Below are positions 6,406-41,625 of a stretch of DNA of 64,000 nucleotides, piece by piece. A model generated the notes under the pieces. It was not told where the DNA came from. It was given only the letters and a program-made list of their open reading frames with translations, and did not search any database. Position numbers and translations under genes: made by a program. Position 1 is the stretch's first letter. The number at the start of each line of letters is the position of its first letter. Origin of the DNA: Candidatus Poribacteria bacterium (lineage in GTDB: Bacteria; Poribacteria; WGA-4E; WGA-3G); contig OZ253447.1 of assembly GCA_965261115.1 (NCBI GenBank), positions 3,402,011 through 3,466,010 on the forward strand. The letters run 5' to 3'.

Positions 6406-6430
6406 TCGTTCTCCTTACTTTTAATAAGTC

Positions 6431-6691
6431 TTATTCGTTTCTTAAATAGTATCGGGCGCGAGACTTAGCGAGACGCATCAGATGTTCAAGTTGTAAACAG
6501 TGATTGAGTTCTGCCGTTTCTTTAGAAGTTAGCCCTATTGTTTTTTCTCGGTGGATGAGATCTGCAATGCGCTCCTTTGCATCCTCGGATGGACAAAAGT
6601 CTATTAAATTTTGAGGGGTCGTTCCCGCTGCAATAAAATCAACAATTTCTTGATATGCAGGTGATGTATACATTCTCTGCTTCCTCATCAA
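6431..6691 (-). CDS. small hypothetical protein, partner of the overlapping DUF433-like gene (possible TA-like pair)
   Basis: 86-aa ORF that overlaps the upstream small gene by about 50 nt on the same strand. No recognisable family. Confidence 0.4.
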   Translation of the reverse strand: MMRKQRMYTSPAYQEIVDFIAAGTTPQNLIDFCPSEDAKERIADLIHREKTIGLTSKETAELNHCLQLEHLMRLAKSRARYYLRNE

Positions 6692-6839
6692 GTTGCCTCA
6701 CACGTTCAAGATACGCCTCCACTTCCTCCGTTTTCGCCAAATAGTAGAGGATAGTTGCGTGTATCTTTTCAAGGCTTAAAGTCGGATAGCATAGCAAAAT
6801 TTCTTCGGGACTCGCGCCCTCCAGATAATCTTCCAACAC
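6639..6839 (-). CDS. DUF433-like small protein (canonical start codon missing; reading frame stays open further upstream)
   Basis: IRIKGNRIDIEIVLEDYLEGASPEEILLCYPTLSLEKIHATILYY matches the DUF433 pattern (GTRI..V..IL..G.s.eeIl..YP.Lt.e.I.aal.Y). The in-frame upstream extension has no ATG/GTG/TTG. Confidence 0.45.
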   Translation of the reverse strand: MLEDYLEGASPEEILLCYPTLSLEKIHATILYYLAKTEEVEAYLERVRQLDEEAENVYITCISRNC

Positions 6840-7004
6840 AATCTCAATATCAATGCGATTTCCTTTAATCCGGATGACATCTTCTTGAACGAAGTCAAAA
6901 TAATCTTCCAGTCCATTGCTACGCTCCGTCGAATTTTTACATCTGCTTGTAGAGAATAGAGAGCGTTCCGTACAAGCAGGGATACATATTTCTCCTACGC
7001 AGAT

Positions 7005-7969
7005 TCAACTCCCATGTGATGCCAAAAGGGTTTTGAATTCATCAAGGCTATTTACCTGCATCGCGGCACGGCGTAAATCTTTGAGGTGCTGTAATTCTTC
7101 AATGGATTCAAGCATCGGTTTTAACGTTTGCCCACCAATCTCGTCGAATTGAATCTCTAATGCCTCAAGAATACCTTCAATGGTACTTTCTCGTGCACCT
7201 TGTTCAATGCCTTGTTCAATGCCTTGTTCAATGCCTTGTTCAATGCCTTGTTCAATGCCTTGCTGTAGGATATATCGGTAAGTCGATGATTCTAACATGG
7301 GGCCCTCCAACAGATGGCGAATTTCGGCAGGATCAACGATCAAACCGCTCAAAATCCATTGCCATATTAGTAAATTATTCTGCAGATCCGGTGTAAGCGG
7401 ACGAGCAAGCGTCATCCGATTACACTGCTCAACCCACTCAACTCTGGATACACCTTCCGGGGGTTGCATCAGCGGCGTAAACGCCATCAGACTGGTCTGA
7501 TCAGTATCAAAAATAGTTTGTCCATCAAACTCACTCAGCCGGATCACCTGATACTCTATTAGCACATTGTGTCCGGGAAAATCTTGGTTATACTCGCCCG
7601 GGTCATTCCCACCGGCATCTGAACGGAGATAGATAGTAAAAGACAGAATCGGCAAGCCATATCTTTCAAAGCACCTTCCGAAATAGCCGACTTTGCGCTT
7701 TAGTATCTCTGGTGTACTCTCACGACTCACTTGGAACTCAATATCACCAAGACTTCTCTACCGTCCACCTCTGCTTTTGACAAAGTATCCATGCGCCGTA
7801 TCTCAACGGTCGGCAGTTCTGTCTCAAGTTGTTCTATGAACTTCAGTCCGGGGATATTGGTCAGTTTCCGCAATAAATCTTCGGTGAAGGTCCCGAAGAT
7901 GTCCTTACTCACAATATCGAATCGGTTGTGCGGTAAGTTTTCAAAGAATTCGTGCAAACTCTTCTGCAT
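7005..7969 (-). pseudogene. Rpn-family recombination-promoting nuclease/putative transposase (PD-(D/E)XK N-domain + DUF4351 C-domain), frameshifted near 7728-7732
   Basis: ORF 7727-7969 encodes the N-terminal Rpn region (..FDIVSKD..GREVLVIL). It continues into ORF 7005-7730 (EFQVSRES..) after a 1-nt shift. The C-terminus has DUF4351-like ..EGILEALEIQFDEIG..LQHLKDL.. Confidence 0.6.
7196..7262. repeat. perfect 12-bp tandem repeat (TTGTTCAATGCC) x5.5 encoding (GIEQ)n inside the Rpn-like gene
   Basis: Direct reading of the sequence. It translates to QQGIEQGIEQGIEQGIEQGIEQG on the minus strand. Confidence 0.9.
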
Positions 7970-8085
7970 ACAAAGATCCTACACCGACTTATTGATGAAT
8001 GTCAACATTTTTATCGCCTGACTCACGATTATGTGGTGTTGAAGGCAAGGAAACTTAACACTGTCTTGGTACTGGTTGGCTTGTG

Positions 8086-8961
8086 TCACAGCGTCTTATC
8101 AAGTTCTTTCAGCAGATTCCGTTGTTTTCGGGATAAAGACTTTGGAATCTCCACGACCAACCGTACCCGCAAATCACCCTTCCGTCCAGAAGCATCTGCA
8201 GCACCTTGCCCACGCAAGCGGAGTTGTTGCCCAGGTTGCGCGCCTGCTGGAACTTTCAGATCCACATCACCCGTTAGGGTTTGGACTCGAATGGAACCGC
8301 CTAATGCCGCCGTTGTCATAGAGATTTTGGCATCTGTCAACAAGTCGGCACCCTCGCGTGTCAATGTCGGATGCGATTGTACAGCGACTGTTACCAGTAG
8401 ATCACCAGAATTGCCGACACCGAGTGTTTCACCGTGCCCACGGATACGCAGGGTTTGCCCGTCTTGAATGCCGGACGGGATAGTAAGGGTAATACGTTTT
8501 CCTTGGACATTGACCTCTTTCTTACAGCCCAACACCGCATCCGCGAACGAGATACTGAGGTCCATCCGGATGTCGCGTCCACGGGTAGGCCCCGTCGTGC
8601 GCCGCTGCCCGAACGCATCGCCGAATGCATCGTCGAATCTACCGAACCCACCGAATCCGCCGAACCCGCGCCCAAAAATATCGTCCAAGTTTATATGCGT
8701 GAAAATATCGTCCATAGTCCGGTAGCCTTCAAACCCCATCCCGTGAACACCCGCATGCCCATGGGTATCATAAGCACGCTTTTTTTCAGGGTCAGAGAGT
8801 ACCGAATAGGCGTTTGATGCCTCTTTGAACTTCTCTTCTGCCGCTTTGTCGCCAGGATTCTTGTCTGGATGGTACTGGACTGCGAGTTTGCGATAGGCTT
8901 TCTTGATTTCTTCAGGAGTAGCACCCCGATCTACGCCGAGGATTTCATAGTAGTCTCTCAT
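8086..8961 (-). CDS. J-domain chaperone, DnaJ class II / CbpA-like (no zinc-finger CxxCxGxG)
   Basis: N-terminal J domain with HPD ([20 protein letters not shown]). G/F-rich linker. DnaJ C-terminal domains. Confidence 0.85.
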
Positions 8962-12360: not shown

Positions 12361-12655
12361 ACATTTACACCTACTCATTAGGGTGTGCTGGTGCTGACAA
12401 TTCGGTGCGTATTGTCTATTATAATTATATCATACACGCACAGAAGGATCGTATTTTGCATGAGGCGCAATCCATGCTCTAATATGCGTGCGATCCGATA
12501 TTATCCTCGCCATCGGTTCGGTGGAGAGGTAAAACGCCTGCGGAGTCCGCGCGAGACCCTGCACGCGGGGGCAGTGGACGATGAAACAGGAACACTAAAA
12601 CAAGATATGTCCACTTTTATAGAGATGTATCAAGTTTTGAAGGAACAGACGCGTC

Positions 12656-13714
12656 ATGTTAATCCGCACGAGAGCCCCAGTCCGCATCGATTTTGCTGGT
12701 GGGTGGAGTGATGTTGCCCTCTTCACCGAAGATTCGAAGGGTCTCGTCGTTAATGGGGCTATTAACCGATACGCTTATGCAACGCTCCGCTGTGAACGCC
12801 AGATCGCACAAGATAAATCCGTTGAACTGCAACGGATTTTGGATAAAAGCATACGTATCTACTCTGCGGATTTCGACACCTTTATTGAAGCAGACGATGT
12901 ACGTCAACTCGAATATGACGGGAACATTGACTTGGTAAAGGCGGCTGTGCGGCAAATGTCGATACAGATTGGCGGGTTCGACCTGATTACGCAGTCCACC
13001 GCACCGCCAGGTAGCGGATTAGGGACTTCGGCATCAATGGGTGTAGCACTTGTCGGTGCGCTTGGCACGCTTAAGGACGCTACCTATCTTCCATACGAGT
13101 ATGCTGAACTCGCGAGTACTATTGAACGTCATGAACTCGGAATACTCGGCGGAAAACAGGACCATTACGCAAGCGCAATCGGTGGCATCCACTTTATGGA
13201 ATTTCAGGGAGAAGAGGTGAAAACTTCACCCTTGAGATTTCCACCACACATCCGCTATGAACTTGAAAAGAACCTTGTCCTCTGTTACACAGGAAAGTCC
13301 CGTCTCTCTGGCAATATACATCAAAATGTTACCGATGCCTATAAAAGTGGTCAACCGAGTGTTCGTGAAGCATTAGAATCCCTCAAAGCGACCGCCGAAG
13401 CAACAAAAACCGCGTTGATGCGTGGCCGTCTGACTGAATTCGGTGAACTCCTCACCCAAAATTGGCATAATCAGAAAAAGTTGCATCCCTCTGTTACAAA
13501 TGAGCAGATCGAATCGCTCTTTAAAATCGCAACGGCTCATGGCGCGATTGGCGGGAAAGCTTGTGGCGCAGGCGGCGGCGGATGTCTCCTGTTTTACTGC
13601 GAACCGACACGCGAACACAACGTCCGCCAAAAACTCGAAGACGCAGGGGCTCACGTTATTGATGTCAACTTCGATTTTGATGGACTTCAAATGTGGAAAA
13701 TTTCAAACGATTAA
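12656..13714 (+). CDS. GHMP-family sugar kinase (heptose-7-phosphate kinase / fucokinase-like)
   Basis: N-terminal RAPVRIDFAGGWSDV. GHMP ATP-binding PPGSGLGTSASMGVALVGAL motif. Confidence 0.8.
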   Translation: MLIRTRAPVRIDFAGGWSDVALFTEDSKGLVVNGAINRYAYATLRCERQIAQDKSVELQRILDKSIRIYSADFDTFIEADDVRQLEYDGNIDLVKAAVRQMSIQIGGFDLITQSTAPPGSGLGTSASMGVALVGALGTLKDATYLPYEYAELASTIERHELGILGGKQDHYASAIGGIHFMEFQGEEVKTSPLRFPPHIRYELEKNLVLCYTGKSRLSGNIHQNVTDAYKSGQPSVREALESLKATAEATKTALMRGRLTEFGELLTQNWHNQKKLHPSVTNEQIESLFKIATAHGAIGGKACGAGGGGCLLFYCEPTREHNVRQKLEDAGAHVIDVNFDFDGLQMWKISND

Positions 13715-13722
13715 AGTAAAAT

Positions 13723-14742
13723 ATGGAAAATAATACGCAAACCCCGGAAGTCATCACTGATATGGAAGCCGCTGAAACTCTGAAAACGGCAAGAGAAAAT
13801 ATTTTAGGAGAACTCAAAAAGCGCATCATCGGGCAAAACGAGGTAATAGAACAACTCCTCATTGCCCTTTTCTCACAGGGACACTGCTTACTGGTGGGTG
13901 TGCCTGGGTTAGCGAAAACACTACTAATTAGCACGTTTGCGCAGATCCTCGAACTCCCTTTCAACCGCATTCAATTTACACCAGACCTAATGCCATCTGA
14001 CATCATCGGTACTGACATTATTGAAGAAGGCGAGGCTGGAAAACGCGCCTTTCGATTTATCAAGGGACCGGTCTTCGCGAATATTGTTCTCGCCGATGAG
14101 ATCAATCGAACACCGCCTAAAACACAAGCCGCACTTTTACAAGCCATGCAGGAATATAAGGTCACGGCAGGCGGTAGAACTTATGCATTGGAACGTCCTT
14201 TTTTTGTCTTAGCGACACAGAATCCCATTGAGCAGGAGGGGACATATCCGCTACCTGAAGCACAACTCGACCGGTTTATGTTCCACATCACAATTGATTA
14301 TCCCGATAAAGATGCCGAAAAAGAGATCGTGATGACGACCACCGCGGCTTATGAACCGGAGATAAAAGCCGTTATCACAGGCGAAGAGGTGCTACAAATA
14401 CAACAGACAGTCCGGAAAGTTCCTATTGCAGAGGCGATTGTAGACTATGCCGTGGAATTGAACCGACAGACACGTCCTACAACCGATGCGCTTGATTTTA
14501 TCCAAGATTGGGTACAATGGGGCGCCGGCCCCAGAGCATCACAGTATCTTGTGCTCGGCGCAAAGGCACGTGCGATTCTCCACGGACGCTATCATGTCTC
14601 ATACGAAGATATCAAGGCGGTCGCTATACCGGTACTACGGCACCGGATTTTGACCAATTTCAATGCGGAAGCCGACGGTATCACCAGTTTGGATATTATC
14701 AGTAGATTGTTGGAAAGGGTTGAACCGCCTGCGGTGCAATAA
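13723..14742 (+). CDS. MoxR-family AAA+ ATPase
   Basis: IIGQNEVIEQLLIALFSQGHCLLVGVPGLAKT Walker A region. MoxR-type C-terminal region. The gene follows the GHMP kinase by 9 nt. Confidence 0.9.
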   Translation: MENNTQTPEVITDMEAAETLKTARENILGELKKRIIGQNEVIEQLLIALFSQGHCLLVGVPGLAKTLLISTFAQILELPFNRIQFTPDLMPSDIIGTDIIEEGEAGKRAFRFIKGPVFANIVLADEINRTPPKTQAALLQAMQEYKVTAGGRTYALERPFFVLATQNPIEQEGTYPLPEAQLDRFMFHITIDYPDKDAEKEIVMTTTAAYEPEIKAVITGEEVLQIQQTVRKVPIAEAIVDYAVELNRQTRPTTDALDFIQDWVQWGAGPRASQYLVLGAKARAILHGRYHVSYEDIKAVAIPVLRHRILTNFNAEADGITSLDIISRLLERVEPPAVQ

Positions 14743-32749: not shown

Positions 32750-33160
32750 TTATAAATTCTTGTTATATTTGATAAAAATCGCTTTAACCTGTAATACGCT
32801 TTTGGTGTCCGTGTTGACGATCTCTACGTCCCCTATGTCATTGACTATGGTTTGTTCTCCGGTCTTTACCCGATCAAATCCTTCAAATATGATTCCATCA
32901 GCACCGCTCTCGCGTGCCTTCTCTATTAACGTTTCTTGTAACGCCTCTGTGTCACCTCCGTCTGCAGCAGCGTGTCCCATCACCAGATAGCCTTCGGTTA
33001 CATCATCTTCTGAAAAGTAAACATCTACATGAGAAGTAGGCGTATAGGAATCTCCAAGATAATCGACATCAATATCATCACCACCGCAAGCGGTAAGAAA
33101 TAAGTTTAATACCACCATAAGCAAAACGATGATTTTTCCATTCACGCTTGCATTCAACAT
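32750..33160 (-). CDS. lipoprotein of unknown function
   Basis: Start at the ATG at 33160, which has a GGAG RBS. Signal peptide with lipobox LTAC-G. The longer annotated ORF overlaps the neighbouring gene. Confidence 0.55.
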   Translation of the reverse strand: MLNASVNGKIIVLLMVVLNLFLTACGGDDIDVDYLGDSYTPTSHVDVYFSEDDVTEGYLVMGHAAADGGDTEALQETLIEKARESGADGIIFEGFDRVKTGEQTIVNDIGDVEIVNTDTKSVLQVKAIFIKYNKNL

Positions 33161-33188
33161 GAGGAACTCCTTATATTTGATTTTCGGT

Positions 33189-34013
33189 TTAAGACTTATC
33201 TGACAATGGACCCCCATCTCCGTATGAAAAAACCAATGGTAGGTGCGCATCATCTGCCAACACGTCACCGGCTTTCAACTTCGCGTACACTTCATCAGGC
33301 AACGCGCTTTTTTTACCATTGAATGTAGCATCCTCCGGCATAAAGAGCATCGCAAACGCACGACGGGGGTATGTCGTCATATTCGGTCCCGCCGCATGCG
33401 CGACCATCCCACTGATGAATACGCCGTCTCCGGCTCTCATCTCAGCTGGATATGGTTCAATCTCTGCCCACTCTGGATATTCGCGGAACAACTCACCGAT
33501 GCCGACTTCTCCGAGACTGCCACCAACCTCAAAACCGCTCGTCTTGTGTGTACCGGGTAGAAAATACAGACAGCCGTTCTGAATCGTTGCATCGTCAAGT
33601 GCTACCCAGAACATGATTGCCTGATGCGAATAAAATGGATCGTAGGGATTATCGACATGGAAATTCGTCGGGTTTGCCCACGGTTGCTTAAACATGGCGT
33701 GGTCGTGATACAATCGCACACCTGAAGTGCCAGCGAGATCTGCCGCCATCCTACCCAACTCTGGCGCGAGAATCAACGCTTTAACCTTCTCGCTCATCTT
33801 CCACAAATTGACGCATTGAACGAAGACGTTCCCGTAGTAACTGTCTCCTTTCTGATTGTGATACATATCATCGCGCTTCATAAACTGTGCGACAGCCGCG
33901 TCAACAGCATCCTGCCACGATGACAATTCTGATCCTTTCAGAAAATCGTCAATAACCAGAAATCCGTTTTCACGGTAAGATTCAACCTGATCGCTCGTAA
34001 GTTGTGTATTCAT
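33189..34013 (-). CDS. phytanoyl-CoA dioxygenase (PhyH) family oxygenase
   Basis: HVDNPYD HxD motif. PhyH-like N-terminal LTSDQVESYRENGFLVIDDFL. Confidence 0.8.
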   Translation of the reverse strand: MNTQLTSDQVESYRENGFLVIDDFLKGSELSSWQDAVDAAVAQFMKRDDMYHNQKGDSYYGNVFVQCVNLWKMSEKVKALILAPELGRMAADLAGTSGVRLYHDHAMFKQPWANPTNFHVDNPYDPFYSHQAIMFWVALDDATIQNGCLYFLPGTHKTSGFEVGGSLGEVGIGELFREYPEWAEIEPYPAEMRAGDGVFISGMVAHAAGPNMTTYPRRAFAMLFMPEDATFNGKKSALPDEVYAKLKAGDVLADDAHLPLVFSYGDGGPLSDKS

Positions 34014-34107
34014 AGCATGTTAGGTGATCGGAAAATCGAAGGATTCTTCAAAGTTAAGTTGGGATATAAGTAGTTTCTATAGGAACTGTCCCTGACGCGG
34101 TCCTTGG

Positions 34108-34716
34108 TCAAAGTGTCTCCATGTCATACAATCCAATAGAGGATGGTCTATTTTTAAGCCATTCAATTACTTTATCAGCGGAACACCTAAAAAATTCCCT
34201 ATGTTCATTAATCCGGTATTGTTTAAACTTTTTATGTAATATATCTTCAAGAATTTCAGGGTATTGAGACGGAATTGAGTAGGCGATCGAAAAGGGTTCT
34301 GGAACCCCCGTTGTATAAAGTTCCTCCGCCCGTTCATGAGCAGTTTTTTCTGTCTTTCCTATTTTTATTAAACCCGGCATGGATGGGTTTGTTAAGATAT
34401 ATACACAATTCCTTTGGTCGTTTTTGTTTGTTCCAAACCTTTCCCTAATCAGACGCTTGCGCTGATTCCAGACGATAGTTTTCCCGCCGTCATTGGGATT
34501 AGGTATACCTAACATCTCTGCCAGTTGCCTATCAGGAATATGGTTAAACAGGAATAGATTGTTTTCATCCTTTTTCAGATTCATGCGTCCTAGAACATGA
34601 TATGCCGCATCAGCATTTTTATCTTGTTTTACCATGAGCTTTGCTTCTTCAAGCAGTTTTCTAAACTCTGGATTCTTGAGATTAGCTTCAATTTGGCGGT
34701 TAGTGTCTCTTGCCAT
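34108..34716 (-). CDS. T5orf172 (GIY-YIG-like) domain protein
   Basis: C-terminal CVYILTNPSMPGLIKIGKTEKTAHERAEELYTTGVPEPFSIAY matches the T5orf172/MUG113 GIY-YIG-like pattern. Confidence 0.6.
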   Translation of the reverse strand: MARDTNRQIEANLKNPEFRKLLEEAKLMVKQDKNADAAYHVLGRMNLKKDENNLFLFNHIPDRQLAEMLGIPNPNDGGKTIVWNQRKRLIRERFGTNKNDQRNCVYILTNPSMPGLIKIGKTEKTAHERAEELYTTGVPEPFSIAYSIPSQYPEILEDILHKKFKQYRINEHREFFRCSADKVIEWLKNRPSSIGLYDMETL

Positions 34717-35223
34717 AATTCTCCTTACCAGGCAGAATTTAAAGATATTACTAATGGGCGCGCAACTCGTAGAAATAGCGAGTTGGAGCTCATTCCTACA
34801 AGAAAGGGGTCTGTAATTTAAACCATTTTACTCACAATTTATTTTACTCACAATTTAAAAGTTGACAAAGCACTATTTATAGTTTGTATCAAATGACCCC
34901 ATGAGTTACACTAAAAGTAACCCAAGTTGCCACTTGCAACATGTTCACCGAGTTGATTCCTGCCATCCCAATATGCGGCACGGCTACGACGTTAGTCTCC
35001 TTAATGCTTTTTGCAATGGGTCCGTTTGGGGACCCGTTGAGTTTTGCGTGAAAGTTACTGGTCATTGATCCCATCTTTGATAGCTTGGAGTTCATCAGAA
35101 AGGTGCCATGATAAATCAGAGATCAACGGTGTTTTCGCCATAGAATCCAGCGTAAAAGAGAACTCAGGATTGCAGGCGTGCAATATTGAATACGTGACGG
35201 AAATTTCTGCTAATCTGGCGGAT

Positions 35224-35922
35224 CTAGCCTAGCAGCCTGGATATGCTCACAGGGAAGTTAAATCCATATTTGTGTACAACCGATTTAACAGTTTCTGTTA
35301 TCCATTTCTCCTTCCTAGTATATGGGGATGTGACCACTTCGTTAATTAATGTCTTAAGATCAAATTTATGGTACTGACCAATTTCACAAATATCTTGAGG
35401 GGAATGATCAGATATAAATTGGTGAGTGTCAACGATGATACGTACCTCGCGTTCAGCTCTATATACCTCTCTTTTATAGAAATACCTATGGAAATTCCGC
35501 GTATACATCTTGTTTATCTCTGATATATCTTGTGGAACTTCAAATTCATATTGATCAGTGTAATTGACTCTGCCTATAAACACGTGAGGGGATTTGGGCA
35601 GACTTTTCTTCAAATTGCCCATAGTCGTTTTTATTGCTATACCACCATTATGCAGCCTATACCGCTCCCACATTAACATTGCTTTTGGCTCACTGTGATG
35701 CCAACAATTACACAGGATGTATCTGCCGAAGTTATTAACTCGCTCTACTACCGGCTCTACTTGCGGAGGTATAGATCCTTCAAATGGATCTTCAAACTTA
35801 TCAGATCTTGTGAAAAATAAAGATTCTTTTGCTAAAATATTGACGAATTTTTCAAAACTCATGAATCTCCATAAAACATCACGGTCTTCAGGCAATTCTA
35901 TACCTGGGAGTTCTTTATGCAT
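35224..35922 (-). CDS. DUF2971 family protein
   Basis: LWRFMSFEKFVNILAKESLFFTRSDKFEDPFEG matches the DUF2971 N-terminal signature. Start at the ATG at 35922, which has an AAGGA RBS. Confidence 0.65.
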   Translation of the reverse strand: MHKELPGIELPEDRDVLWRFMSFEKFVNILAKESLFFTRSDKFEDPFEGSIPPQVEPVVERVNNFGRYILCNCWHHSEPKAMLMWERYRLHNGGIAIKTTMGNLKKSLPKSPHVFIGRVNYTDQYEFEVPQDISEINKMYTRNFHRYFYKREVYRAEREVRIIVDTHQFISDHSPQDICEIGQYHKFDLKTLINEVVTSPYTRKEKWITETVKSVVHKYGFNFPVSISRLLG

Positions 35923-35981
35923 GTAATATCCTTTCGCAACGTAATAAAAACCGTTAACTGAAAATGAATCTATCCGCAAAA

Positions 35982-36200
35982 CTACTTATTGGGTAATTGT
36001 ATGAGTCGTCGCGCGTGGGCGTTTCGCGGGCGTGCCATCATTGCAGGTCGCTGGATAGTCAGACCTGTCAACTCTTGGAGTTGGTCTACAGTTAGGTTCT
36101 TGCCGTCTCGCCATCGGAGCATCTTCTGCACCCCCTGTTGATTTTCGGTATGGTATATTTTGGCTGTCAACCTGACAACTGCCGTCACTTCATGACCCAC
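35982..36200 (-). CDS. small hypothetical protein (may be spurious)
   Basis: 72-aa ORF between the DUF2971 gene and the lipoprotein gene on the same strand. Confidence 0.25.
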   Translation of the reverse strand: MGHEVTAVVRLTAKIYHTENQQGVQKMLRWRDGKNLTVDQLQELTGLTIQRPAMMARPRNAHARRLIQLPNK

Positions 36201-36245
36201 CTTGTAGTGCGATAAACGCGGGGTCTATGATTTTCATAAGGTCTC

Positions 36246-36665
36246 CTACTTGATATTGTCGTCAAAGACACCCCCGAAATCGCCCAAGTAGGCATTCACG
36301 CGAAGGGTATACGTTGACGGTGGGTCAAACTCCATTCTCGCACCACGTAGATAAATTTTTTCATTGAGTGGTGTGAGTGTATGACGATAAACTTCCTTAT
36401 CACGATTGTAAACTACAAAATCTTTACCCTCTACATCAACTATTACGTGCGTTGGGTCAAGCGTTCCCTTTTGCCACGTAAAATAGAGATAATGTGCACC
36501 ACGTGTTTGATTGGTAAGGTTTTTAGAGAGTGCAACAGTGAATACGGACAAGGTGTCAACTTCGGGCTGTTCTTTCACGGTTTGGGCTACAGATTCTTTG
36601 ACGGGTTGATTATCTTGACAACCTAAAACTATTATCACGAGCATCAAAACGAAAATCGTTCTCAT
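36246..36665 (-). CDS. lipoprotein of unknown function
   Basis: Signal peptide with lipobox VLGC. Confidence 0.55.
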   Translation of the reverse strand: MRTIFVLMLVIIVLGCQDNQPVKESVAQTVKEQPEVDTLSVFTVALSKNLTNQTRGAHYLYFTWQKGTLDPTHVIVDVEGKDFVVYNRDKEVYRHTLTPLNEKIYLRGARMEFDPPSTYTLRVNAYLGDFGGVFDDNIK

Positions 36666-36865
36666 AATATCACCTCTAAAGCAATTTTTTTTGCTAAAAT
36701 AATTTCTAAATCAGGCGGGTCTTTCCGCCTGTTCTCCCTGCCCTAAAAATCAGTAGAATACAATATGTTACCTTATTCCCTCCTTTTGGGAGCATCTATC
36801 CATTGATAACCGCGTGATGAAATATTCCTATCCGCGGATTGCCTTTGATCAGGAAAGAGCGCAAT

Positions 36866-37054
36866 TTATTGATCGGTAGCGGTATCGTGAATCCAAACGC
36901 CGAGAGTACCGGCACCGGCAAGCCGTGTGCTATCCAGCGAGTATTGAATTTCAAATAGCCAGCCTTTACCGAGCCGTGCTATCGCGCCTTCGGGGAGATG
37001 CCATTGTAGTGAATCTTCAGCGATACTATCGTTCGAGAAAAAGAGAACCGGCAA
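36866..37054 (-). pseudogene. WD40-repeat protein fragment (single blade remnant)
   Basis: ..IQYSLDSTRLAGAGTLGVWIHD resembles one WD40 blade (FSPDGTRLASGSDGTVRLWD). Only 62 codons remain. Confidence 0.3.
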
Positions 37055-37226
37055 ACAGAGAACGGTGAATGTGAAAAAAATGTAGTTTTCATTGTTATTC
37101 TCCTTTGAAATTTATATATCCCACTGAATATACTTTTTTGACAAAATAGAAATGCTGGTCCCCATTAAGGATAGACCGGGAAGCCAATAAACATCGGATC
37201 TCCAGCCATCCTATGGTCATTTGATA

Positions 37227-39740
37227 CTATTTCAAGATTAACATCTTCCGCGTTGCGGTGAAATCGCCTGCAGTGAGGGTATAAAAATAGACACCGCTCG
37301 CGACCCTTTCACCAAATGCGTTTTTACCATCCCAATACGCTGCACGACTTCGGTGCTGATACATACCCGCTGGTTGATACCCAAGTGCCAATGCTCGCAC
37401 CAATACTCCATTTACCGAATAGATGTGCAATGTGACATCGACGGGCTTCGCCAACTGATACGGTATCCATGTTTCTGGATTAAACGGGTTCGGATAATTC
37501 GCAAGTAGTGCCGTCTCTTTCGGTATCAACGTCACGAGGAGTTTTTGTAAAAACAGGATCCCGCGTAGTGATGTTGTATCCATGAGATTCAATTGCTGTG
37601 CAGCGGAAAGCCACTGTTTGACGTCTGTAGCAGCGAGCATTTCTGAGGCTTGAGGATTTAGAGAAGGTGCGGCGGCATTATTGCCTAATGCTCCAGCAAC
37701 CAAGACGAGATCCGCAATGTTGACCTGTCCATCGCCATTGACATCTGCAGTATTCTGTCCTGTCTCGCCGAGATTTGAAGCGACTAATACCAAATCCGCA
37801 ATGTTGACAGTCCCATCACCGTTAACATCTCCTTTGAGTTTAGTGGGTTCAGTTATCTCTGCGTTTTCAATCTGAGGGAGAAATGTCTCGCCTGCTCTGT
37901 TTGAAAGCAGCACATCAGATAAGGTTAGAGTGGATGCTTTCGCTGTGATAACCTCAAAGGTAAGAGTAGCGAGGGGACCATCTCCATCACTTTCTCCGGC
38001 GAGCGATGCAGCGTTGAGTTTTACGAGATTGCCCTCCACTTTCGGCTCTACAAAGAACGCATCCGCTGGTAAAAAATCACCATTCATACCTGAAACAAAT
38101 CGGAGGGCTGTATCATCAAACTGCACGGTTGCCTGATAGCCTGCGACATTTTCGCCGTTAGCAATTTTCAGGGACAATTTGAGTTGTTGACCGATATTAG
38201 GGGACTGCACACTTGCAGGCGAGAGACTCACCGTATCTGATCGGTCCCCTGTATTGTAATCAGTAATTGATTCAACAGACGGCAACGAAACTTTGTCGTT
38301 ATTTCCTAAAAGGAAGTTAGCGATTAGTTCAGCAGCAACCTTGCCTTTAGGGTTTACCTCGTTAAAGGTTTGATAGACAATACCAATCCTTCCACGATTA
38401 CCATCCCGGACAATAACCGGATCCGCTCTGGTGGCTTGTGAGGTACCTGTATCACTCGCAAGAACCTTTTCAGCAAACCAGTCCCCGGTAAGTTCATCAA
38501 GGTGAAAGGCCCTATCGGATTTAAAATTCATAAGGCTTGGAGTAACCTCTTTGCCATCTTTCGTTACTACCATTGGGGTATTATTTTCCACCCCGAAGTC
38601 CCACATTGTGATATGTGGAATATCCATAATGGCTTGTAAAGCTTGGACATCATTATGCACGTTGCCACTGGACACATAACCAAAGTAATCACCATGGTTA
38701 AGAATAGTATTTCCGTCAGTTGATTCAATCCAATTTTCTGCCACAGAACCGTCCGGTTGACTATTAGGAGACGGGTAAATAGAAGTTGGTAGGGTCCCGT
38801 AGAGGATTAAAACATCTACGTTACCATCTGAAGTTGTTTGAAGCATCCAGTCTCTAACAGAATCTTCGGTTTGAACAATTTCGGCTTGAATACCTTCTGA
38901 AGAAAGCAATTGCTTTGTGATTTGAGATTGCCGATTGGCATCATCATGGCTTATCCAACTAACAGTCCCTGTATACATCAGAACGTTTATGTTTTCATAA
39001 GGTTTTGGAGGATCTTCTTGCAGATTGATTTTTCTGAAAATTGGACGGCTATCTAACACAATTGCGTCTTCTTTTGTCATTCGCATTCTATCACCCCAAT
39101 CTTCAGTAGTATCTCCCCAAGCTTGGACAGTTCCATTTAAAGATTCACCATTATTATAGTTGTTATGTCCCGGGTCCAGTCCGAAAGCGTGGCCCAATTC
39201 GTGTGCTACTACACTAAGATAGTGATGCGGGAAATCATCTATCATATCCATAGTTACTATTGCATTACCGCCCCATCTATCACCGTGCCATGTATGCCCC
39301 CAAGCAAAACCTCGTCCCCATTGACCATGCATTTGTAAACCGCCCAAGATAATTAAATGCACATTATCACGAGAATCCCAATTGAGATCATTGTTGAATT
39401 TGTATGGGAGTTCGGATCTAACTGAATTCCAATTGTCGTTGGCATTCGTATCATAGTGATCAGTGTTGTGTTTAGCGTTAATTGTATGTATAACAAGTTT
39501 TCCATTTTCATCTGTTTCTAATGGAAATGTTTTATCAGTAAAATCGTGTCGCGTCATTTCTGACTGATAATATTTCTGAATATCTTTCATTATTTTATCA
39601 TGGTATTCATGATCTATGTCTGGAGCATCTATTGGTTTAAAATACAGAACATGAACATCGAATTTAGCAATGGATGACAGAGACGATACTGAAATTAATA
39701 TTAGGATCAAAAACGTTAGTAGAAGTCGGAAGTGTTTCAT
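37227..39740 (-). CDS. secreted zinc metalloprotease (HEXXH zincin) with two dockerin-type repeats and T9SS-type C-terminal sorting domain
   Basis: Signal peptide from the ATG at 39740. VVAHELGHAFGLDPGH zincin motif. DVNGDGTVNIADLVLVA and DVNGDGQVNIADLVLVA dockerin repeats. C-terminal NYPNPFNPET..IYSVNGVLV..GVYFYTL matches the Por/T9SS CTD. Confidence 0.75.
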   Translation of the reverse strand: MKHFRLLLTFLILILISVSSLSSIAKFDVHVLYFKPIDAPDIDHEYHDKIMKDIQKYYQSEMTRHDFTDKTFPLETDENGKLVIHTINAKHNTDHYDTNANDNWNSVRSELPYKFNNDLNWDSRDNVHLIILGGLQMHGQWGRGFAWGHTWHGDRWGGNAIVTMDMIDDFPHHYLSVVAHELGHAFGLDPGHNNYNNGESLNGTVQAWGDTTEDWGDRMRMTKEDAIVLDSRPIFRKINLQEDPPKPYENINVLMYTGTVSWISHDDANRQSQITKQLLSSEGIQAEIVQTEDSVRDWMLQTTSDGNVDVLILYGTLPTSIYPSPNSQPDGSVAENWIESTDGNTILNHGDYFGYVSSGNVHNDVQALQAIMDIPHITMWDFGVENNTPMVVTKDGKEVTPSLMNFKSDRAFHLDELTGDWFAEKVLASDTGTSQATRADPVIVRDGNRGRIGIVYQTFNEVNPKGKVAAELIANFLLGNNDKVSLPSVESITDYNTGDRSDTVSLSPASVQSPNIGQQLKLSLKIANGENVAGYQATVQFDDTALRFVSGMNGDFLPADAFFVEPKVEGNLVKLNAASLAGESDGDGPLATLTFEVITAKASTLTLSDVLLSNRAGETFLPQIENAEITEPTKLKGDVNGDGTVNIADLVLVASNLGETGQNTADVNGDGQVNIADLVLVAGALGNNAAAPSLNPQASEMLAATDVKQWLSAAQQLNLMDTTSLRGILFLQKLLVTLIPKETALLANYPNPFNPETWIPYQLAKPVDVTLHIYSVNGVLVRALALGYQPAGMYQHRSRAAYWDGKNAFGERVASGVYFYTLTAGDFTATRKMLILK

Positions 39741-39790
39741 GAGGGTTCCGTCTGTTACATACTTAGAGTCTATCATGATTGTAAAAAACC

Positions 39791-40594
39791 TTAATCATAA
39801 TTGCTTGGTCGATGATCGCCGAGGAGTCGTCTCTGCCGAGGGCTCGCTTGGGCGAGAATGGATGCATCAAACTGAAACTTATTCAGATAGGGCGGATATT
39901 TCTGTGTAATCATCCGCATGGCATAGTGGACTTGCATGAGATAGCGGACTTCATTACTCGTATTGGCAGAGCCGCGATGCCAGACTTCGCTGCGGAAAAG
40001 CACGACATCCCCGGCATTACATAAGATACTCTCTTCTCCGCGGTTATTCCACTCGGTTGCACCGTTTGGGGAACACCCAGAGAAATGGCTGCCCGGAACA
40101 AACTTCGTCGGTCCCAATTCTTCATACATATCGTTGAGATAGTAATGGGCAGTGGTGATGAAGATTGGGATTTTGACGCGCGGATCAGAACGAACGTCTG
40201 CCGGTAGAGAGATTGGCAGCCAATCGGTATGTAATCCCTGATCTGGACGGTCGGGTCCTGTCAGCCACGAATGCATACCGATGCAGTGGCAATCCTCGCC
40301 GTGCGCCGCCTCGGCAACTTCAATAACAGGCGATCTGTCAAGGTATTGGAGATACAACGGATCCCGATTAAACGAGTTGCTGATGAGCTTGTGAAGGAAT
40401 GCGTTGCCATTTTGCGGGGTTTCATCCCGGTCATGAGATTCTGGGATCGCCTCTAATCGATCCATAGTCGCTCGTAATTCAGCGATTTCATCGGCGTCAA
40501 GCACGCTGGGGAAATAGACATAACCATCCCTTTCGAGTGCTTCAACTTGACTTTCTAAGTCGTCGTATGCAACGAGTGAAAGAGCTTTCGCCAC
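39791..40594 (-). CDS. PhyH-family Fe(II)/2OG dioxygenase (tandem paralog 1)
   Basis: GLHTDWLP HxD motif. GTG start at 40594 with an AAGGAG RBS. Highly similar to the adjacent gene. Confidence 0.8.
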   Translation of the reverse strand: MAKALSLVAYDDLESQVEALERDGYVYFPSVLDADEIAELRATMDRLEAIPESHDRDETPQNGNAFLHKLISNSFNRDPLYLQYLDRSPVIEVAEAAHGEDCHCIGMHSWLTGPDRPDQGLHTDWLPISLPADVRSDPRVKIPIFITTAHYYLNDMYEELGPTKFVPGSHFSGCSPNGATEWNNRGEESILCNAGDVVLFRSEVWHRGSANTSNEVRYLMQVHYAMRMITQKYPPYLNKFQFDASILAQASPRQRRLLGDHRPSNYD

Positions 40595-40662
40595 TTTTGG
40601 TACTCCTTTCAGATAGCTGACAACCAAGCCCACAAGGACACACCTCAAATTATGTGTCACCT

Positions 40663-41466
40663 TTAATCATAATTGCTTGGCCGATGATCGCCGAGGAGCC
40701 GTCGCTGTTGAGGATTCGCTTGGGCAAGGATCGATGCGTCAAACTGAAACTTATTCAGGTAAGGCGGGTATTTCTGTGTAATCATCCGTTGTGCATAATG
40801 GACTTGCAAGAGGTAACGGGTTTCGTCAGCCGTATTGGCGGAACCCCGGTGCCAGACTTCACTGCGGAAAAGCACCACGTCCCCAGCATTGCATAAGATA
40901 CTTTCTTCCGTTCTGCCTTTCCACTCGGTTTGCCCGTTCGGAGAACACCCAGAGTAATGACTACCTGGGACAAACTTCGTCGGTCCCAGTGCTTCATACA
41001 TATCGTTGAGATAGTAGTGGGCAGTGGTGATGAAGATTGGGACTTTGACGCGTGGGGCAGAACGGATATCTGCTGGCAGCGCAATTGGTAGCCAATCGGT
41101 ATGTAACCCCTGATCCGGACGTCCCGGTCCTGTCAACCACGATTGCATCCCGATACAATGACAATCCTCGCCGTGCGTCGCTTCAGCAACTTCAATAATC
41201 GGTGATTTGTCAAGGAATTCGAGATAGAGTGGATCTCGATTAAACGAGTTGTTGATGATTTTATTGAGGAATCCGCCGCCATTTTGAGGCGTTTGGTGTC
41301 GATCCAAGCACTCTGGGATCGTTTCTAATCGATCCATAGTCGCTCGCAACTCAGCGACTTCCTCAGCATCAAGCACGTTGGGGAAATAGACATAACCATC
41401 TCTTTCCAGTGCTTCCACTTGGCTTTCTAAATCGTTGTATGCAATAAGTGAAAGGGCTTTCGCCAT
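40663..41466 (-). CDS. PhyH-family Fe(II)/2OG dioxygenase (tandem paralog 2)
   Basis: Same motifs. ATG at 41466 with an AAGGAG RBS. Near-identical length (267 aa) and sequence to paralog 1. Confidence 0.8.
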   Translation of the reverse strand: MAKALSLIAYNDLESQVEALERDGYVYFPNVLDAEEVAELRATMDRLETIPECLDRHQTPQNGGGFLNKIINNSFNRDPLYLEFLDKSPIIEVAEATHGEDCHCIGMQSWLTGPGRPDQGLHTDWLPIALPADIRSAPRVKVPIFITTAHYYLNDMYEALGPTKFVPGSHYSGCSPNGQTEWKGRTEESILCNAGDVVLFRSEVWHRGSANTADETRYLLQVHYAQRMITQKYPPYLNKFQFDASILAQANPQQRRLLGDHRPSNYD

Positions 41467-41625
41467 TTTTGGTACTCCTTTCGGACGATAGCAATAGGTC
41501 AACGCTTCTCGCTATGATATGTTAACCGCAACGAAGTTGTCAATGAAAAAATATGTCGGAGTTGGATTTCAAGCGTCCGGATTTCCTTTAAGCTCCACCA
41601 CAAAGCGATTGCCTCAATACCTCAG

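What the first reader, a model, noticed from the sequence alone, without database searches (positions are those of the whole stretch)
34108..36665. T5orf172 (GIY-YIG-like) + DUF2971 gene pair with small flanking genes: candidate defense islet
Same-strand genes encode a DUF2971 protein (35224-35922) and a T5orf172/MUG113-type GIY-YIG-like domain protein (34108-34716). A 500-bp noncoding spacer between them contains a tandem 16-bp direct repeat, TTTTACTCACAATTTA x2 at 34826-34857, and a 7-bp-stem hairpin. A small ORF and a lipoprotein gene lie upstream. Both domains recur in phage-defense islands. This pairing sits beside ordinary metabolic genes with no other mobile context, and I do not recognise it as a named system.
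Basis: partly seen in the sequence, partly recalled or inferred. Interest (0 to 1): 0.55.

Follow-up and report, generated by a model that had tools for sequence, protein, structure and literature searches.

The report
Two unrelated defence-type genes, adjacent by accident
A long-resident nuclease gene of a Poribacteria genome lies next to a recently arrived 2.2-kb DNA module carrying a DarT-like ADP-ribosyltransferase gene of a known single-gene anti-phage family; the two do not form a new two-gene system.

Summary
The sequence features are real. The T5orf172 gene (34108-34716), the DUF2971 gene (35224-35922), the 507-bp spacer, the exact 16-bp x2 tandem repeat, the 7-bp hairpin, the 72-aa ORF and the lipoprotein ORF are all present, all on the minus strand.

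- The T5orf172 gene is a resident gene of a conserved Candidatus Poribacteria locus (dockerin protein, variable slot, T5orf172, PhyH). It was found at that position in seven related contigs, none with DUF2971.
- None of 80 DUF2971 loci from genomes has a T5orf172-family ORF within 10 kb.
- Window 34877-37105 (DUF2971, lipoprotein, gene fragments) is 98.3% identical to a segment of another contig with different flanks and no T5orf172.

Verdict: ordinary co-location of two independent conflict-type genes in a variable slot. Low-to-moderate interest.

The parts
34108..34716 (-). Resident gene for a 202-aa protein. Residues 1-100 form a lineage-restricted helical (wHTH-like) domain. Residues about 101-190 form a T5orf172 / GIY-YIG nuclease-fold domain.
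34108..34438 (-). C-terminal nuclease-domain cassette, which differs between alleles of the locus.
   Evidence: Nucleotide homology to L090 and L091 covers only 34726-34439 and resumes at the PhyH start (34013) in L090. Protein identity to group-2 alleles is 62-76% in the N-domain and 21-29% in the C-domain.
34727..34876 (-). Unique 150-bp junction that supplies the present upstream region of the T5orf172 gene. It holds a promoter-like TTGTCA-16 nt-TAAAAT, the tandem repeat, a 5'-UTR hairpin and an AAGGAG ribosome-binding site.
   Evidence: No homologue in any fetched locus. Promoter-like site 34868..34841 on the minus strand. Sequence read.
34825..34857 (.). Exact 16-bp tandem duplication (ATTTTACTCACAATTT x2.1). 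On the minus strand each copy carries a TAAAAT -10-like box.
   Evidence: TRF score 66, 100% match. Unique in the window and absent from 91 loci.
34763..34785 (.). 7-bp-stem hairpin (CAACTCG N9 CGAGTTG) in the presumed 5' UTR of the T5orf172 gene.
   Evidence: Read directly from the sequence.
34877..37105 (-). 2.23-kb module shared with another Poribacteria contig in a different context. It carries a truncated gene fragment, the lipoprotein gene, the 72-aa ORF region, DUF2971 and a decayed 3' remnant.
   Evidence: 98.3% identity over 2247 bp to L087 2689-4935 and to L088. There are 20 substitutions plus one 18-bp indel. No other part of L087 matches the window.
34929..34988 (-). Pseudogene remnant of a T9SS / FlgD_ig-type C-terminal sorting domain inside the 'spacer'.
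   Evidence: blastx: 20 aa, 80% identical to residues 815-834 of the window dockerin protein and to many paralogues. blastn match to L002 7495-7558.
34877..34919 (.). Short repeated motif at the right end of the module (AACTCATGGGGTCATTTGATACAAACTATAAAT). GGTCATTTGATAC is the reverse complement of GTATCAAATGACC, which follows the dockerin stop codon.
   Evidence: Also present at L087 13-60, immediately 5' of a group II intron insertion point, and in L057.
35014..35039 (+). 10-pair G+C-rich hairpin followed by AGTTTTGCGT on the plus strand. It is terminator-like and lies downstream of DUF2971.
   Evidence: Only one such site was found in the region (2.3 expected), so function is not shown.
35224..35922 (-). 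Solo DUF2971 gene (232 aa), a predicted DarT-like ADP-ribosyltransferase.
35982..36200 (-). 72-aa ORF that ends 2 nt before an alternative TTG start of DUF2971. Coding status is unsupported.
   Evidence: No Pfam or PADLOC hit. Not called as a gene in L087/L088. No homologue beside any of 80 other DUF2971 genes.
36246..36665 (-). 139-aa predicted lipoprotein (signal peptide plus lipobox), part of the module.
   Evidence: Read from the sequence. Called as a 145-aa gene in L087, differing by an in-frame IIVLGC duplication. No family hit.
36854..37105 (-). Truncated N-terminal fragment of a large secreted (Metallopep/WD40-type) protein family.
   Evidence: blastx: 35-47% identity to the N-termini of 370-900-aa ORFs in L036, L029, L056 and L006.
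37106..37177 (.). Unique left junction, between the end of homology to relatives (37178) and the start of the module.
37227..39776 (-). Flanking resident gene: an 849-aa cohesin/dockerin protein with a T9SS-type C-terminal domain.
   Evidence: Pfam. 92% nucleotide identity to L002.
33189..34013 (-). Flanking resident PhyH dioxygenase gene. It lies about 95 bp downstream of the T5orf172 gene in six of the seven relatives (L091 is the exception).
   Evidence: Pfam E=4.5e-32. Synteny.

Best explanation
Two independent conflict-type genes lie side by side because a variable intergenic slot received a DNA module. They are not a two-gene system.

**1. The T5orf172 gene is a long-term resident.** It sits at a syntenic Candidatus Poribacteria locus: PhyH x2, dockerin/cohesin protein, variable slot, T5orf172, PhyH, DUF6785, MR_MLE. 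Its product joins a lineage-restricted N-terminal helical, winged-helix-like domain (inferred DNA binding) to a GIY-YIG-fold T5orf172 domain with the conserved Tyr/Arg/Glu positions (inferred active nuclease). It is kept by purifying selection. Its nuclease domain has been exchanged as a cassette between alleles.

**2. A module replaced the gene that normally sits upstream.** In relatives, a small signal-peptide/coiled-coil/TM gene overlaps the T5orf172 start codon. In this genome a 2.23-kb module plus two unique junctions (2.45 kb in all, 34727-37177) replaced it. The exchange most likely happened by recombination among the repeated 3' ends and downstream motifs of T9SS-type genes (inferred).

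**3. The only cargo with a predicted activity is a solo DUF2971 protein.** It most likely works on its own, as an Aristaios / PDC-S31-type abortive-infection effector. On phage infection this DarT-like ADP-ribosyltransferase would use NAD+ to modify a nucleic-acid or protein target and block phage transcription or replication. This mechanism is inferred from the fold, the family motifs and the published relative; it is not shown here.

**4. The tandem repeat belongs to the new junction.** That junction now supplies a promoter-like sequence and 5' UTR for the T5orf172 gene. The repeat is most simply a slippage duplication of a -10-like box.
For: **Synteny without DUF2971.** T5orf172 orthologues sit at the same locus in L001, L002 and L003, L005, L086, L090 and L091. 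None has DUF2971.

**Breakpoints.** Homology to L002 ends at 37178 and resumes at 34726. So 2.45 kb here replaces 317 bp there. Relatives carry a small coiled-coil/TM gene that overlaps the T5orf172 ATG.

**Slot cargo differs between genomes.** L005 carries a 1434-aa PIN-TPR-GreABC/DUF433 protein plus a DUF5615 protein. L086 has about 6.2 kb between the dockerin gene and T5orf172 and a near-identical T5orf172 (dS 0.016), so it probably carries the same insert; its slot genes were not annotated.

**The module exists elsewhere.** 98.3% identity over 2247 bp to L087/L088, with a group II intron and PSCyt1/WD40 genes as flanks.

**Co-occurrence.** 0 of 80 DUF2971 loci have a T5orf172-family ORF, even at E<=10 with filters off.

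**DUF2971.** Full-length PDC-S31 match. DarT-like fold. Invariant ExE and Tyr positions retained. Aristaios is a validated single-gene DUF2971 system with an ART fold that blocks phage transcription (PMC11381338, PMC13064643). The family is predicted to be DarT/AbiGi-like (PMC12522546). The nearest non-identical homologue (53%) sits next to an integrase, a DUF4238 gene and P2-like genes. 238 plasmids carry homologues.

**T5orf172.** dN/dS 0.21-0.43 with six intact 202-aa genes. Fold results. Invariant Y106, G120, T122, R129 and E157 across both allele groups. Domain swap shown.
Against: - No expression or phenotype data exist for either gene.
- The Pfam DUF2971 score is only at threshold.
- Direct sequence similarity to Aristaios was not tested because its sequence is not held.
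- About half of the Poribacteria DUF2971 paralogues have an adjacent ~118-aa partner that this copy lacks. A solo copy might therefore be incomplete, or might need a partner encoded elsewhere.
- The T5orf172 gene is core-like at this locus, which is atypical of defence genes. Its role could be defence, regulation or selfish; this remains open.
- The relatedness of the L087 host to the window genome is unknown, so recent horizontal transfer cannot be told apart from intragenomic duplication or rearrangement.
Confidence: 0.8

Rival explanations
1. One reading: T5orf172 and DUF2971, perhaps with the small ORF and the lipoprotein, form one new multi-gene defence system. For example, an ART sensor or effector could work with a GIY-YIG nuclease.
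For: - Same strand, adjacent, low-GC patch.
- Both proteins hit PADLOC candidate models.
Against: - 0 of 80 and 0 of 7 co-occurrence.
- The two genes have different histories. T5orf172 shows a graded series of orthologues at 75-92% identity, whereas DUF2971 drops from 96% to 53%.
- The DUF2971 module is found intact elsewhere without T5orf172.
- A 507-bp spacer containing a pseudogene remnant and a separate promoter-like junction lies between the two genes.
- PADLOC lists both as single-gene candidates.
Confidence: 0.04
2. The resident T5orf172 nuclease marks, or actively drives, a recombination hotspot. This would be a cellular analogue of the homing-endonuclease 'islands' of phages. Its cleavage near its own locus would promote turnover of the upstream slot and of its own nuclease cassette, so the slot would accumulate conflict genes such as DUF2971 or PIN-TPR/DUF5615.
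For: - Homology between genomes breaks 10 bp upstream of the start codon and again at the domain boundary inside the gene.
- Slot content differs in nearly every genome examined.
- Phage T5orf172 homing endonucleases sit at the boundaries of genetic exchange, and some share DNA-binding regions while carrying unrelated T5orf172 domains (PMC10448857).
Against: - Slot breakpoints are not at one fixed site. In L005 a 140-bp remnant of the small gene is kept, L001 lacks only its 5' part, and the window lost all of it.
- The slot is flanked by multi-copy T9SS gene ends and repeated motifs, which alone can explain the rearrangements.
- Only two kinds of conflict-type cargo were seen in the eight genomes (the window included). 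Neither the PIN-TPR protein nor the DUF5615 protein hits PADLOC.
- Nuclease activity has not been tested.
Confidence: 0.1
3. The slot is a genomic junkyard and the DUF2971 copy is a non-functional passenger. It would be silent, or lack a required partner, and would be on its way to decay like the fragments around it.
For: - The module contains a truncated N-terminal gene fragment and a T9SS C-terminal-domain remnant.
- The usual ~118-aa neighbour of many Poribacteria DUF2971 genes is absent.
- No clear intrinsic terminator or promoter has been assigned to DUF2971.
Against: - The ORF is intact at 232 aa, with all 38 family-invariant positions retained.
- The L087 copy differs by only 4 nt and 2 aa and is also intact.
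- The lipoprotein gene is intact in both copies.
- Single-gene DUF2971 defence is documented (PMC11381338).
Confidence: 0.1

Closest known systems
Aristaios (single-gene lactococcal Abi-like antiphage system; DUF2971, ART fold) and PADLOC candidate PDC-S31
   Same: - A stand-alone DUF2971 protein of similar size (232 aa here, 316 aa for Aristaios).
- Full-length match to a PDC-S31 profile.
- ADP-ribosyltransferase fold, as reported for Aristaios (PMC11381338).
- An accessory, patchy distribution, including plasmids and a prophage-like context.
   Different: - The host is Poribacteria and the gene is chromosomal.
- Direct sequence similarity to Aristaios was not measured.
- No phenotype is known.
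- The gene sits in a module with a lipoprotein gene and gene fragments.
- Many paralogues in the same phylum have an adjacent ~118-aa partner, which is not described for Aristaios.
DarT of DarTG toxin-antitoxin / antiphage systems (ssDNA thymidine ADP-ribosyltransferase)
   Same: - The published profile analysis links DUF2971 to DarT, AbiGi and Tox-ART-HYD1 (PMC12522546).
- A conserved ExE-type motif.
   Different: - Only about 10% sequence identity, with no sequence-level PDB hit.
- No DarG-like macrodomain antitoxin gene is adjacent.
- The motif I histidine is not conserved; the window protein has W18-R19 there.
- The substrate is unknown.
PADLOC candidate PDC-S57 and PD-Lambda-1 (T5orf172-containing defence candidates or systems)
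   Same: The T5orf172 domain matches PDC-S57 PDLC05041 at E=2.5e-32 and PD-Lambda-1 at E=1.6e-7.
   Different: - The match covers only the nuclease domain: protein residues 101-188 against profile positions 4-91 of 212.
- The window protein has its extra domain at the N-terminus, and that domain is lineage-specific with no Pfam or PADLOC hit.
- The gene is syntenic and core-like rather than patchy.
Phage T5orf172 homing endonucleases and their domesticated relative CapR (ICP1/PLE)
   Same: - A DNA-binding module fused to a T5orf172 GIY-YIG domain.
- Alleles share the DNA-binding region but carry unrelated T5orf172 domains (PMC10448857).
- The gene lies at homology breakpoints.
   Different: - The gene is chromosomal and fixed at one bacterial locus.
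- The N-terminal domain is helical and wHTH-like, not a CapR/DUF723-type zinc finger.
- Purifying selection acts across species.
- No evidence of homing.

Membership tests
Pfam T5orf172 (PF10544) / GIY-YIG superfamily | Sequence match to the family profile above the curated cut-off | tested here: met
   64.9 bits against a cut-off of 20, residues 104-188.
Pfam T5orf172 (PF10544) / GIY-YIG superfamily | GIY-YIG alpha/beta fold | tested here: met
   [not shown]
Pfam T5orf172 (PF10544) / GIY-YIG superfamily | Conserved catalytic-type residues (Tyr of the first motif, Arg, Glu) | tested here: met
   Y106, G120, T122, R129 and E157 are invariant, and H161, E174 and F176 are at least 90% conserved, across 34 sequences of both allele groups. 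Their assignment to catalytic roles is inferred.
Pfam T5orf172 (PF10544) / GIY-YIG superfamily | Nuclease activity | not testable with these tools
   Needs biochemistry.
PADLOC PDC-S57 (single-gene defence candidate) | Full-length match to a PDC-S57 profile | tested here: not met
   Only profile positions 4-91 of 212 are matched, by residues 101-188. The N-terminal 100 aa have no counterpart.
PADLOC PDC-S57 (single-gene defence candidate) | Patchy, defence-island-type distribution | tested here: not met
   The gene is syntenic at one locus in all 7 related contigs examined.
Pfam DUF2971 (PF11185) | Sequence match at or above the gathering cut-off | tested here: met
   22.0 bits against a cut-off of 22, so borderline. 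Supported by homologues with precomputed PF11185 and by source names 'DUF2971 domain-containing protein'.
PADLOC PDC-S31 (single-gene DUF2971 defence candidate) | Full-length match to a PDC-S31 profile | tested here: met
   PDLC04993 E=1.7e-22, profile 7-233 of 245. Three further PDC-S31 models also hit.
PADLOC PDC-S31 (single-gene DUF2971 defence candidate) | Stand-alone gene with no conserved partner | tested here: inconclusive
   The window copy has no conserved neighbour. However, 41 of about 80 related loci carry an adjacent ~118-aa ORF.
Aristaios | DUF2971 domain with an ADP-ribosyltransferase fold | tested here: met
   The description of Aristaios comes from PMC11381338.
Aristaios | Direct sequence homology to the Aristaios protein | not tested
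Aristaios | Abortive-infection-like phage resistance from a single gene | not testable with these tools
   Needs a phage challenge.
DarT / DarTG | DarT-type ART fold | tested here: met
   [not shown]
DarT / DarTG | Adjacent DarG macrodomain antitoxin | tested here: not met
   No macrodomain or any family hit in the neighbouring ORFs.
DarT / DarTG | Sequence-level membership in the DarT family | tested here: not met
   [not shown]
Hypothetical T5orf172 + DUF2971 two-gene system | Recurrent co-location of the two families | tested here: not met
   0 of 80 and 0 of 7.

The most novel reading that the evidence does not exclude
The lineage-fixed wHTH-T5orf172 gene of Poribacteria may be a chromosomal counterpart of phage homing-endonuclease 'island' boundaries. 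In this reading it is a domesticated nuclease whose own catalytic domain is exchanged as a cassette, and whose activity keeps the adjacent slot recombinogenic. The slot then captures conflict genes such as the solo DUF2971 ART here and the PIN-TPR/DUF5615 pair in L005. This would be a nuclease-anchored defence-gene capture site in a sponge-symbiont phylum.
Probability: 0.08. Interest if true: 0.6.

Novelty: new member of a known kind. Interest (0 to 1): 0.27.

Why it matters
It removes a false lead: this is not a new two-gene defence system.

Three modest positives remain.
1. The window holds a Poribacteria member of the DUF2971 / PDC-S31 / Aristaios-type ART family. The family is expanded in this phylum, with up to four copies per genome. 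Poribacteria are an uncultured phylum, so the finding adds to what is known of their conflict-type genes.
2. There is a lead to a possible cognate ~118-aa partner of many DUF2971 paralogues. This could help explain how these DarT-like enzymes are controlled.
3. The syntenic wHTH-T5orf172 gene has an allelic nuclease-domain swap. This is a clean cellular example of the modularity described for phage T5orf172 endonucleases.

Tried and rejected
- **Exact-sequence look-ups** of both window proteins found no record, so homologues were used instead.
- **Rfam** at E<=1 over 33000-38000 gave no hit.
- **Spacer RNA fold** gave only z = -2.3. There is no support for a structured ncRNA.
- **The metagenome-contig scan** with the T5orf172 alignment returned only one locus.
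- **The DUF2971 profile against PDB sequences** gave no meaningful hit.
- **72-aa ORF as antitoxin or partner** was rejected. It has no family hit, was not called in L087/L088, and is absent beside 80 other DUF2971 genes. It does not match the ~118-aa partner profile even with filters off.
- **Lipoprotein as partner** was rejected: no homologue near other DUF2971 genes.
- **Small coiled-coil/TM gene upstream of T5orf172 in relatives as an obligatory partner** was rejected. It is intact only in L003 and L091. It is frameshifted or truncated in L001, L002 and L005, not called in L090, and deleted in the window.
- **Clean site-specific insertion with an AAATAGT core** was considered because both module ends carry that sequence and halves of a 13-bp palindrome. 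It was not adopted. The palindrome half next to the dockerin stop is also present in genomes without the module, and unique junction DNA separates the module from both homology breakpoints.
- **PADLOC on the alternative slot cargo** (PIN-TPR, DUF5615) and on group-2 alleles gave no significant hits.
- **The tandem repeat as a recurrent operator** has no support: no other copy was found anywhere.
Full report
**1. Observation**

All genes of the finding are on the minus strand.
- ORF 34108-34716 (202 aa) matches Pfam T5orf172 (E=1e-17) and MUG113 on residues 104-188.
- ORF 35224-35922 (232 aa) has an ATG start that fits the family consensus. It matches Pfam DUF2971 exactly at the gathering score (22.0 bits). 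It also matches a PADLOC PDC-S31 model over its full length (E=1.7e-22).
- The 507-bp spacer holds an exact 16-bp tandem duplication at 34825-34857. The 16-mer occurs nowhere else in the window or in 91 fetched loci.
- The spacer also holds a 7-bp-stem hairpin at 34763-34785 and a 10-pair hairpin at 35014-35039.
- The 72-aa ORF (35982-36200) and a 139-aa ORF with a lipobox (36246-36665) have no family hits.
- GC content drops to 0.37-0.41 over about 34000-36000.

**2. Organism and the T5orf172 locus**

Homologues that carry a source name come from Candidatus Poribacteria. The T5orf172 protein has a graded series of orthologues at 75-92% identity.

In every contig I could inspect, the orthologue sits at the same place: after a cohesin/dockerin T9SS-type gene or a PhyH gene. 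In six of the seven contigs a PhyH gene follows about 95 bp downstream, with DUF6785 further on and MR_MLE beyond that where the fetched contig reaches. In L091 a 135-aa hypothetical gene follows instead. The contigs are L001, L002 and L003, L005, L086, and L090 and L091. None of the seven carries DUF2971.

Six orthologues are intact at 202 aa, with pairwise dN/dS of 0.21-0.43. The gene is therefore a maintained resident, not a recent arrival.

**3. What lies upstream is variable**

Nucleotide homology between the window and L002 runs from 39786 to 37178 and resumes at 34726, which is 10 bp before the T5orf172 ATG. So 2.45 kb in the window replaces 317 bp in L002.

In relatives, the DNA upstream of T5orf172 encodes a small protein with a signal peptide, coiled coil and TM segment. 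Its stop overlaps the T5orf172 start. It is intact in L003 and L091, frameshifted or truncated in L001, L002 and L005, and not called in L090. In the window it is deleted except for its first few codons.

L005 carries quite different cargo in the same slot: a 1434-aa PIN-TPR-GreABC/DUF433 protein and a DUF5615 protein. L086 has about 6.2 kb at this position and a near-identical T5orf172 gene, so it probably carries the same insert. Breakpoints differ between genomes.

**4. The DUF2971 gene belongs to a separate module**

Its nearest relatives are 96% identical and then only 53%. This is unlike the graded T5orf172 series.

One member of its 90% cluster lies on an 86.5-kb contig (L087). There, window 37105-34877 is matched at 98.3% over 2247 bp. 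The differences are 20 substitutions plus one 18-bp in-frame indel in the lipoprotein signal peptide. DUF2971 itself differs by 4 nt and 2 aa.

The flanks in L087 are a group II intron reverse transcriptase and PSCyt1/WD40 genes. Nothing else in L087 matches the 64-kb window.

The module carries, in order:
- a truncated N-terminal fragment of a large secreted protein (36854-37105);
- the lipoprotein gene;
- the 72-aa ORF region;
- DUF2971;
- a decayed tail that includes a 20-aa remnant of a T9SS C-terminal domain (34929-34988).

The module's right end carries a short motif that recurs in L087 and L057. It is half of a 13-bp palindrome; the other half follows the dockerin stop codon. Unique junction DNA (34727-34876 and 37106-37177) separates the module from the homology breakpoints. 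I therefore infer recombination among repeated T9SS-gene ends rather than a clean site-specific insertion.

**5. Co-occurrence test**

A scan of one genome per species returned 143 confirmed DUF2971 relatives, of which the best 80 loci were kept. They are mostly Poribacteria, with up to four paralogues per genome.

A profile built from both T5orf172 allele groups finds no T5orf172-family ORF in the +/-10 kb flanks of any of the 80 loci, even at E<=10 with filters off. It recovers every T5orf172 locus held at that point (L001-L003, L005) and the window copy.

Together with the 0 of 7 result in the other direction and the L087 context, the pairing is incidental.

**6. What the two proteins are**

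- This agrees with the published prediction that DUF2971 is a DarT/AbiGi-like ADP-ribosyltransferase with a conserved Tyr and ExE and a poorly conserved motif I His (PMC12522546).
- It also agrees with Aristaios, a single-gene DUF2971 protein with an ART fold that gives abortive-infection-like resistance and blocks phage transcription (PMC11381338, PMC13064643).
- The 53% homologue P0114 sits beside an integrase, a DUF4238 gene, an RHH antitoxin and P2-like genes. Homologues occur on 238 plasmids.

- The N-terminal 100 aa have no Pfam or PADLOC hit. They have only 21 representative clusters among 1.84 billion proteins.
- The PADLOC PDC-S57 match is domain-only (profile 4-91 of 212). The protein is therefore not a full-length member of that candidate family.

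**7. An unexpected feature of the T5orf172 gene**

Positional alleles in L090 and L091, and many other Poribacteria proteins, keep the N-terminal domain at 62-76% identity. Their T5orf172 domain, however, is only 21-29% identical. Nucleotide homology to the window stops at 34439 and resumes at the PhyH start in L090.

The nuclease domain is thus an exchangeable cassette. The same has been described for phage T5orf172 homing endonucleases (PMC10448857).

**8. The spacer and the repeat**

On the minus strand the unique junction reads TTGTCA, 16 nt, TAAAAT (34868..34841). The tandem duplication supplies a second TAAAAT. Then come the 7-bp hairpin and an AAGGAG ribosome-binding site before the ATG.

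The simplest reading is a new promoter and 5' UTR for the T5orf172 gene, created at the junction, with a slippage duplication. There is no Rfam hit, the fold z-score is only -2.3, and the sequence is not conserved anywhere. A regulatory role, for example binding by the protein's own wHTH domain, is possible but unsupported.

**9. Verdict**

The best explanation, at about 0.8 confidence, is two independent conflict-type genes made neighbours by turnover of a variable slot:
- a solo DarT-like DUF2971 ART of the PDC-S31 / Aristaios kind;
- a resident, lineage-specific wHTH-GIY-YIG nuclease gene.

The two-gene-system reading is at about 0.04. A nuclease-anchored hotspot reading (about 0.1) is not excluded, but the non-fixed breakpoints and the abundance of repeats weaken it. 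This is a new member of known kinds, of low-to-moderate interest.

Noticed in passing
L007, L009, L011, L013, L015-L019, L022, L026-L028, L030, L031, L033, L035, L040-L043, L047-L050, L054, L055, L059, L062, L063, L066, L074, L077 (e.g. L041 9529-9888): In 41 of about 80 Poribacteria DUF2971 loci, a ~118-aa ORF (MKVNFEEKFKEILKEESKGF...WFRSHKFIYGMMSK...GTIESIAMKTRDAFRDF) lies directly beside the DUF2971 gene on the same strand. It is usually just upstream, but in L035, L059, L066 and L077 it is just downstream. It has no Pfam or PADLOC hit. It may be a cognate immunity or regulatory partner of these DarT-like proteins. The window copy lacks it.
   Followed up: partly
window 34108-34438, compared with L090 8261-8678 and L091 8272-8705: The C-terminal T5orf172 nuclease domain is an allelic cassette. 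Positional alleles share the N-terminal domain (62-76% identity) and the flanking genes, but their nuclease domains are only 21-29% identical.
   Followed up: yes
L005 3125-7791 (same slot as window 34727-37177; L086 has a ~6.2-kb insert at this position whose genes were not annotated): In a related genome the slot upstream of T5orf172 holds a 1434-aa TPR protein with PIN-TPR-GreABC and DUF433 hits, plus a DUF5615 protein. This is toxin-antitoxin-like cargo. Neither protein hits PADLOC.
   Followed up: partly
L003 7625-8017, L091 7511-8017, L002 7652-7963: A small gene for a signal-peptide / coiled-coil / TM protein (103-168 aa) has its stop overlapping the T5orf172 start codon by 17 nt. It is intact in only two of the seven relatives and is deleted in the window.
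   Followed up: partly
L087 1-2604; window 34877-34919 and 37214-37226: A group II intron (RVT_N/RVT_1/GIIM/HNH ORF; 5' end GTGCG at about L087 62) is inserted inside a 13-bp-stem palindrome (GGTCATTTGATAC - AAACTATAAATA - GTATCAAATGACC). Intron-less halves of this palindrome flank the DUF2971 module in the window, and the motif recurs in L057. It may be a recurrent intron homing site or recombination motif downstream of T9SS-type genes.
   Followed up: partly
L004 6163-7860: The closest non-identical DUF2971 homologue (53%) sits next to a tyrosine integrase, a DUF4238 gene, an RHH antitoxin and P2-like terminase and gpD genes. This is a prophage or satellite-type accessory hotspot.
   Followed up: no
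window 39791-41502 and 33189-34013; L001-L003, L090, L091: Multiple paralogous PhyH dioxygenase genes (80-87% nucleotide identity to each other) are interspersed through this locus in all the relatives, together with IS605-type (Y1 transposase/TnpB) and DDE-transposase genes in several of them (L001-L003, L091). This repeat-rich neighbourhood is likely to favour rearrangement.
   Followed up: no
L087 12640-14555 and 6470-8017: Long arrays of degenerate internal repeats (about 65-78% identity, ~75-bp register) appear in the self-comparison of L087 downstream of the DUF2971 module. The 6470-8017 block falls within the WD40 beta-propeller gene (5450-8596). The 12640-14555 block lies among small uncharacterised ORFs and was not examined.
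   Followed up: no
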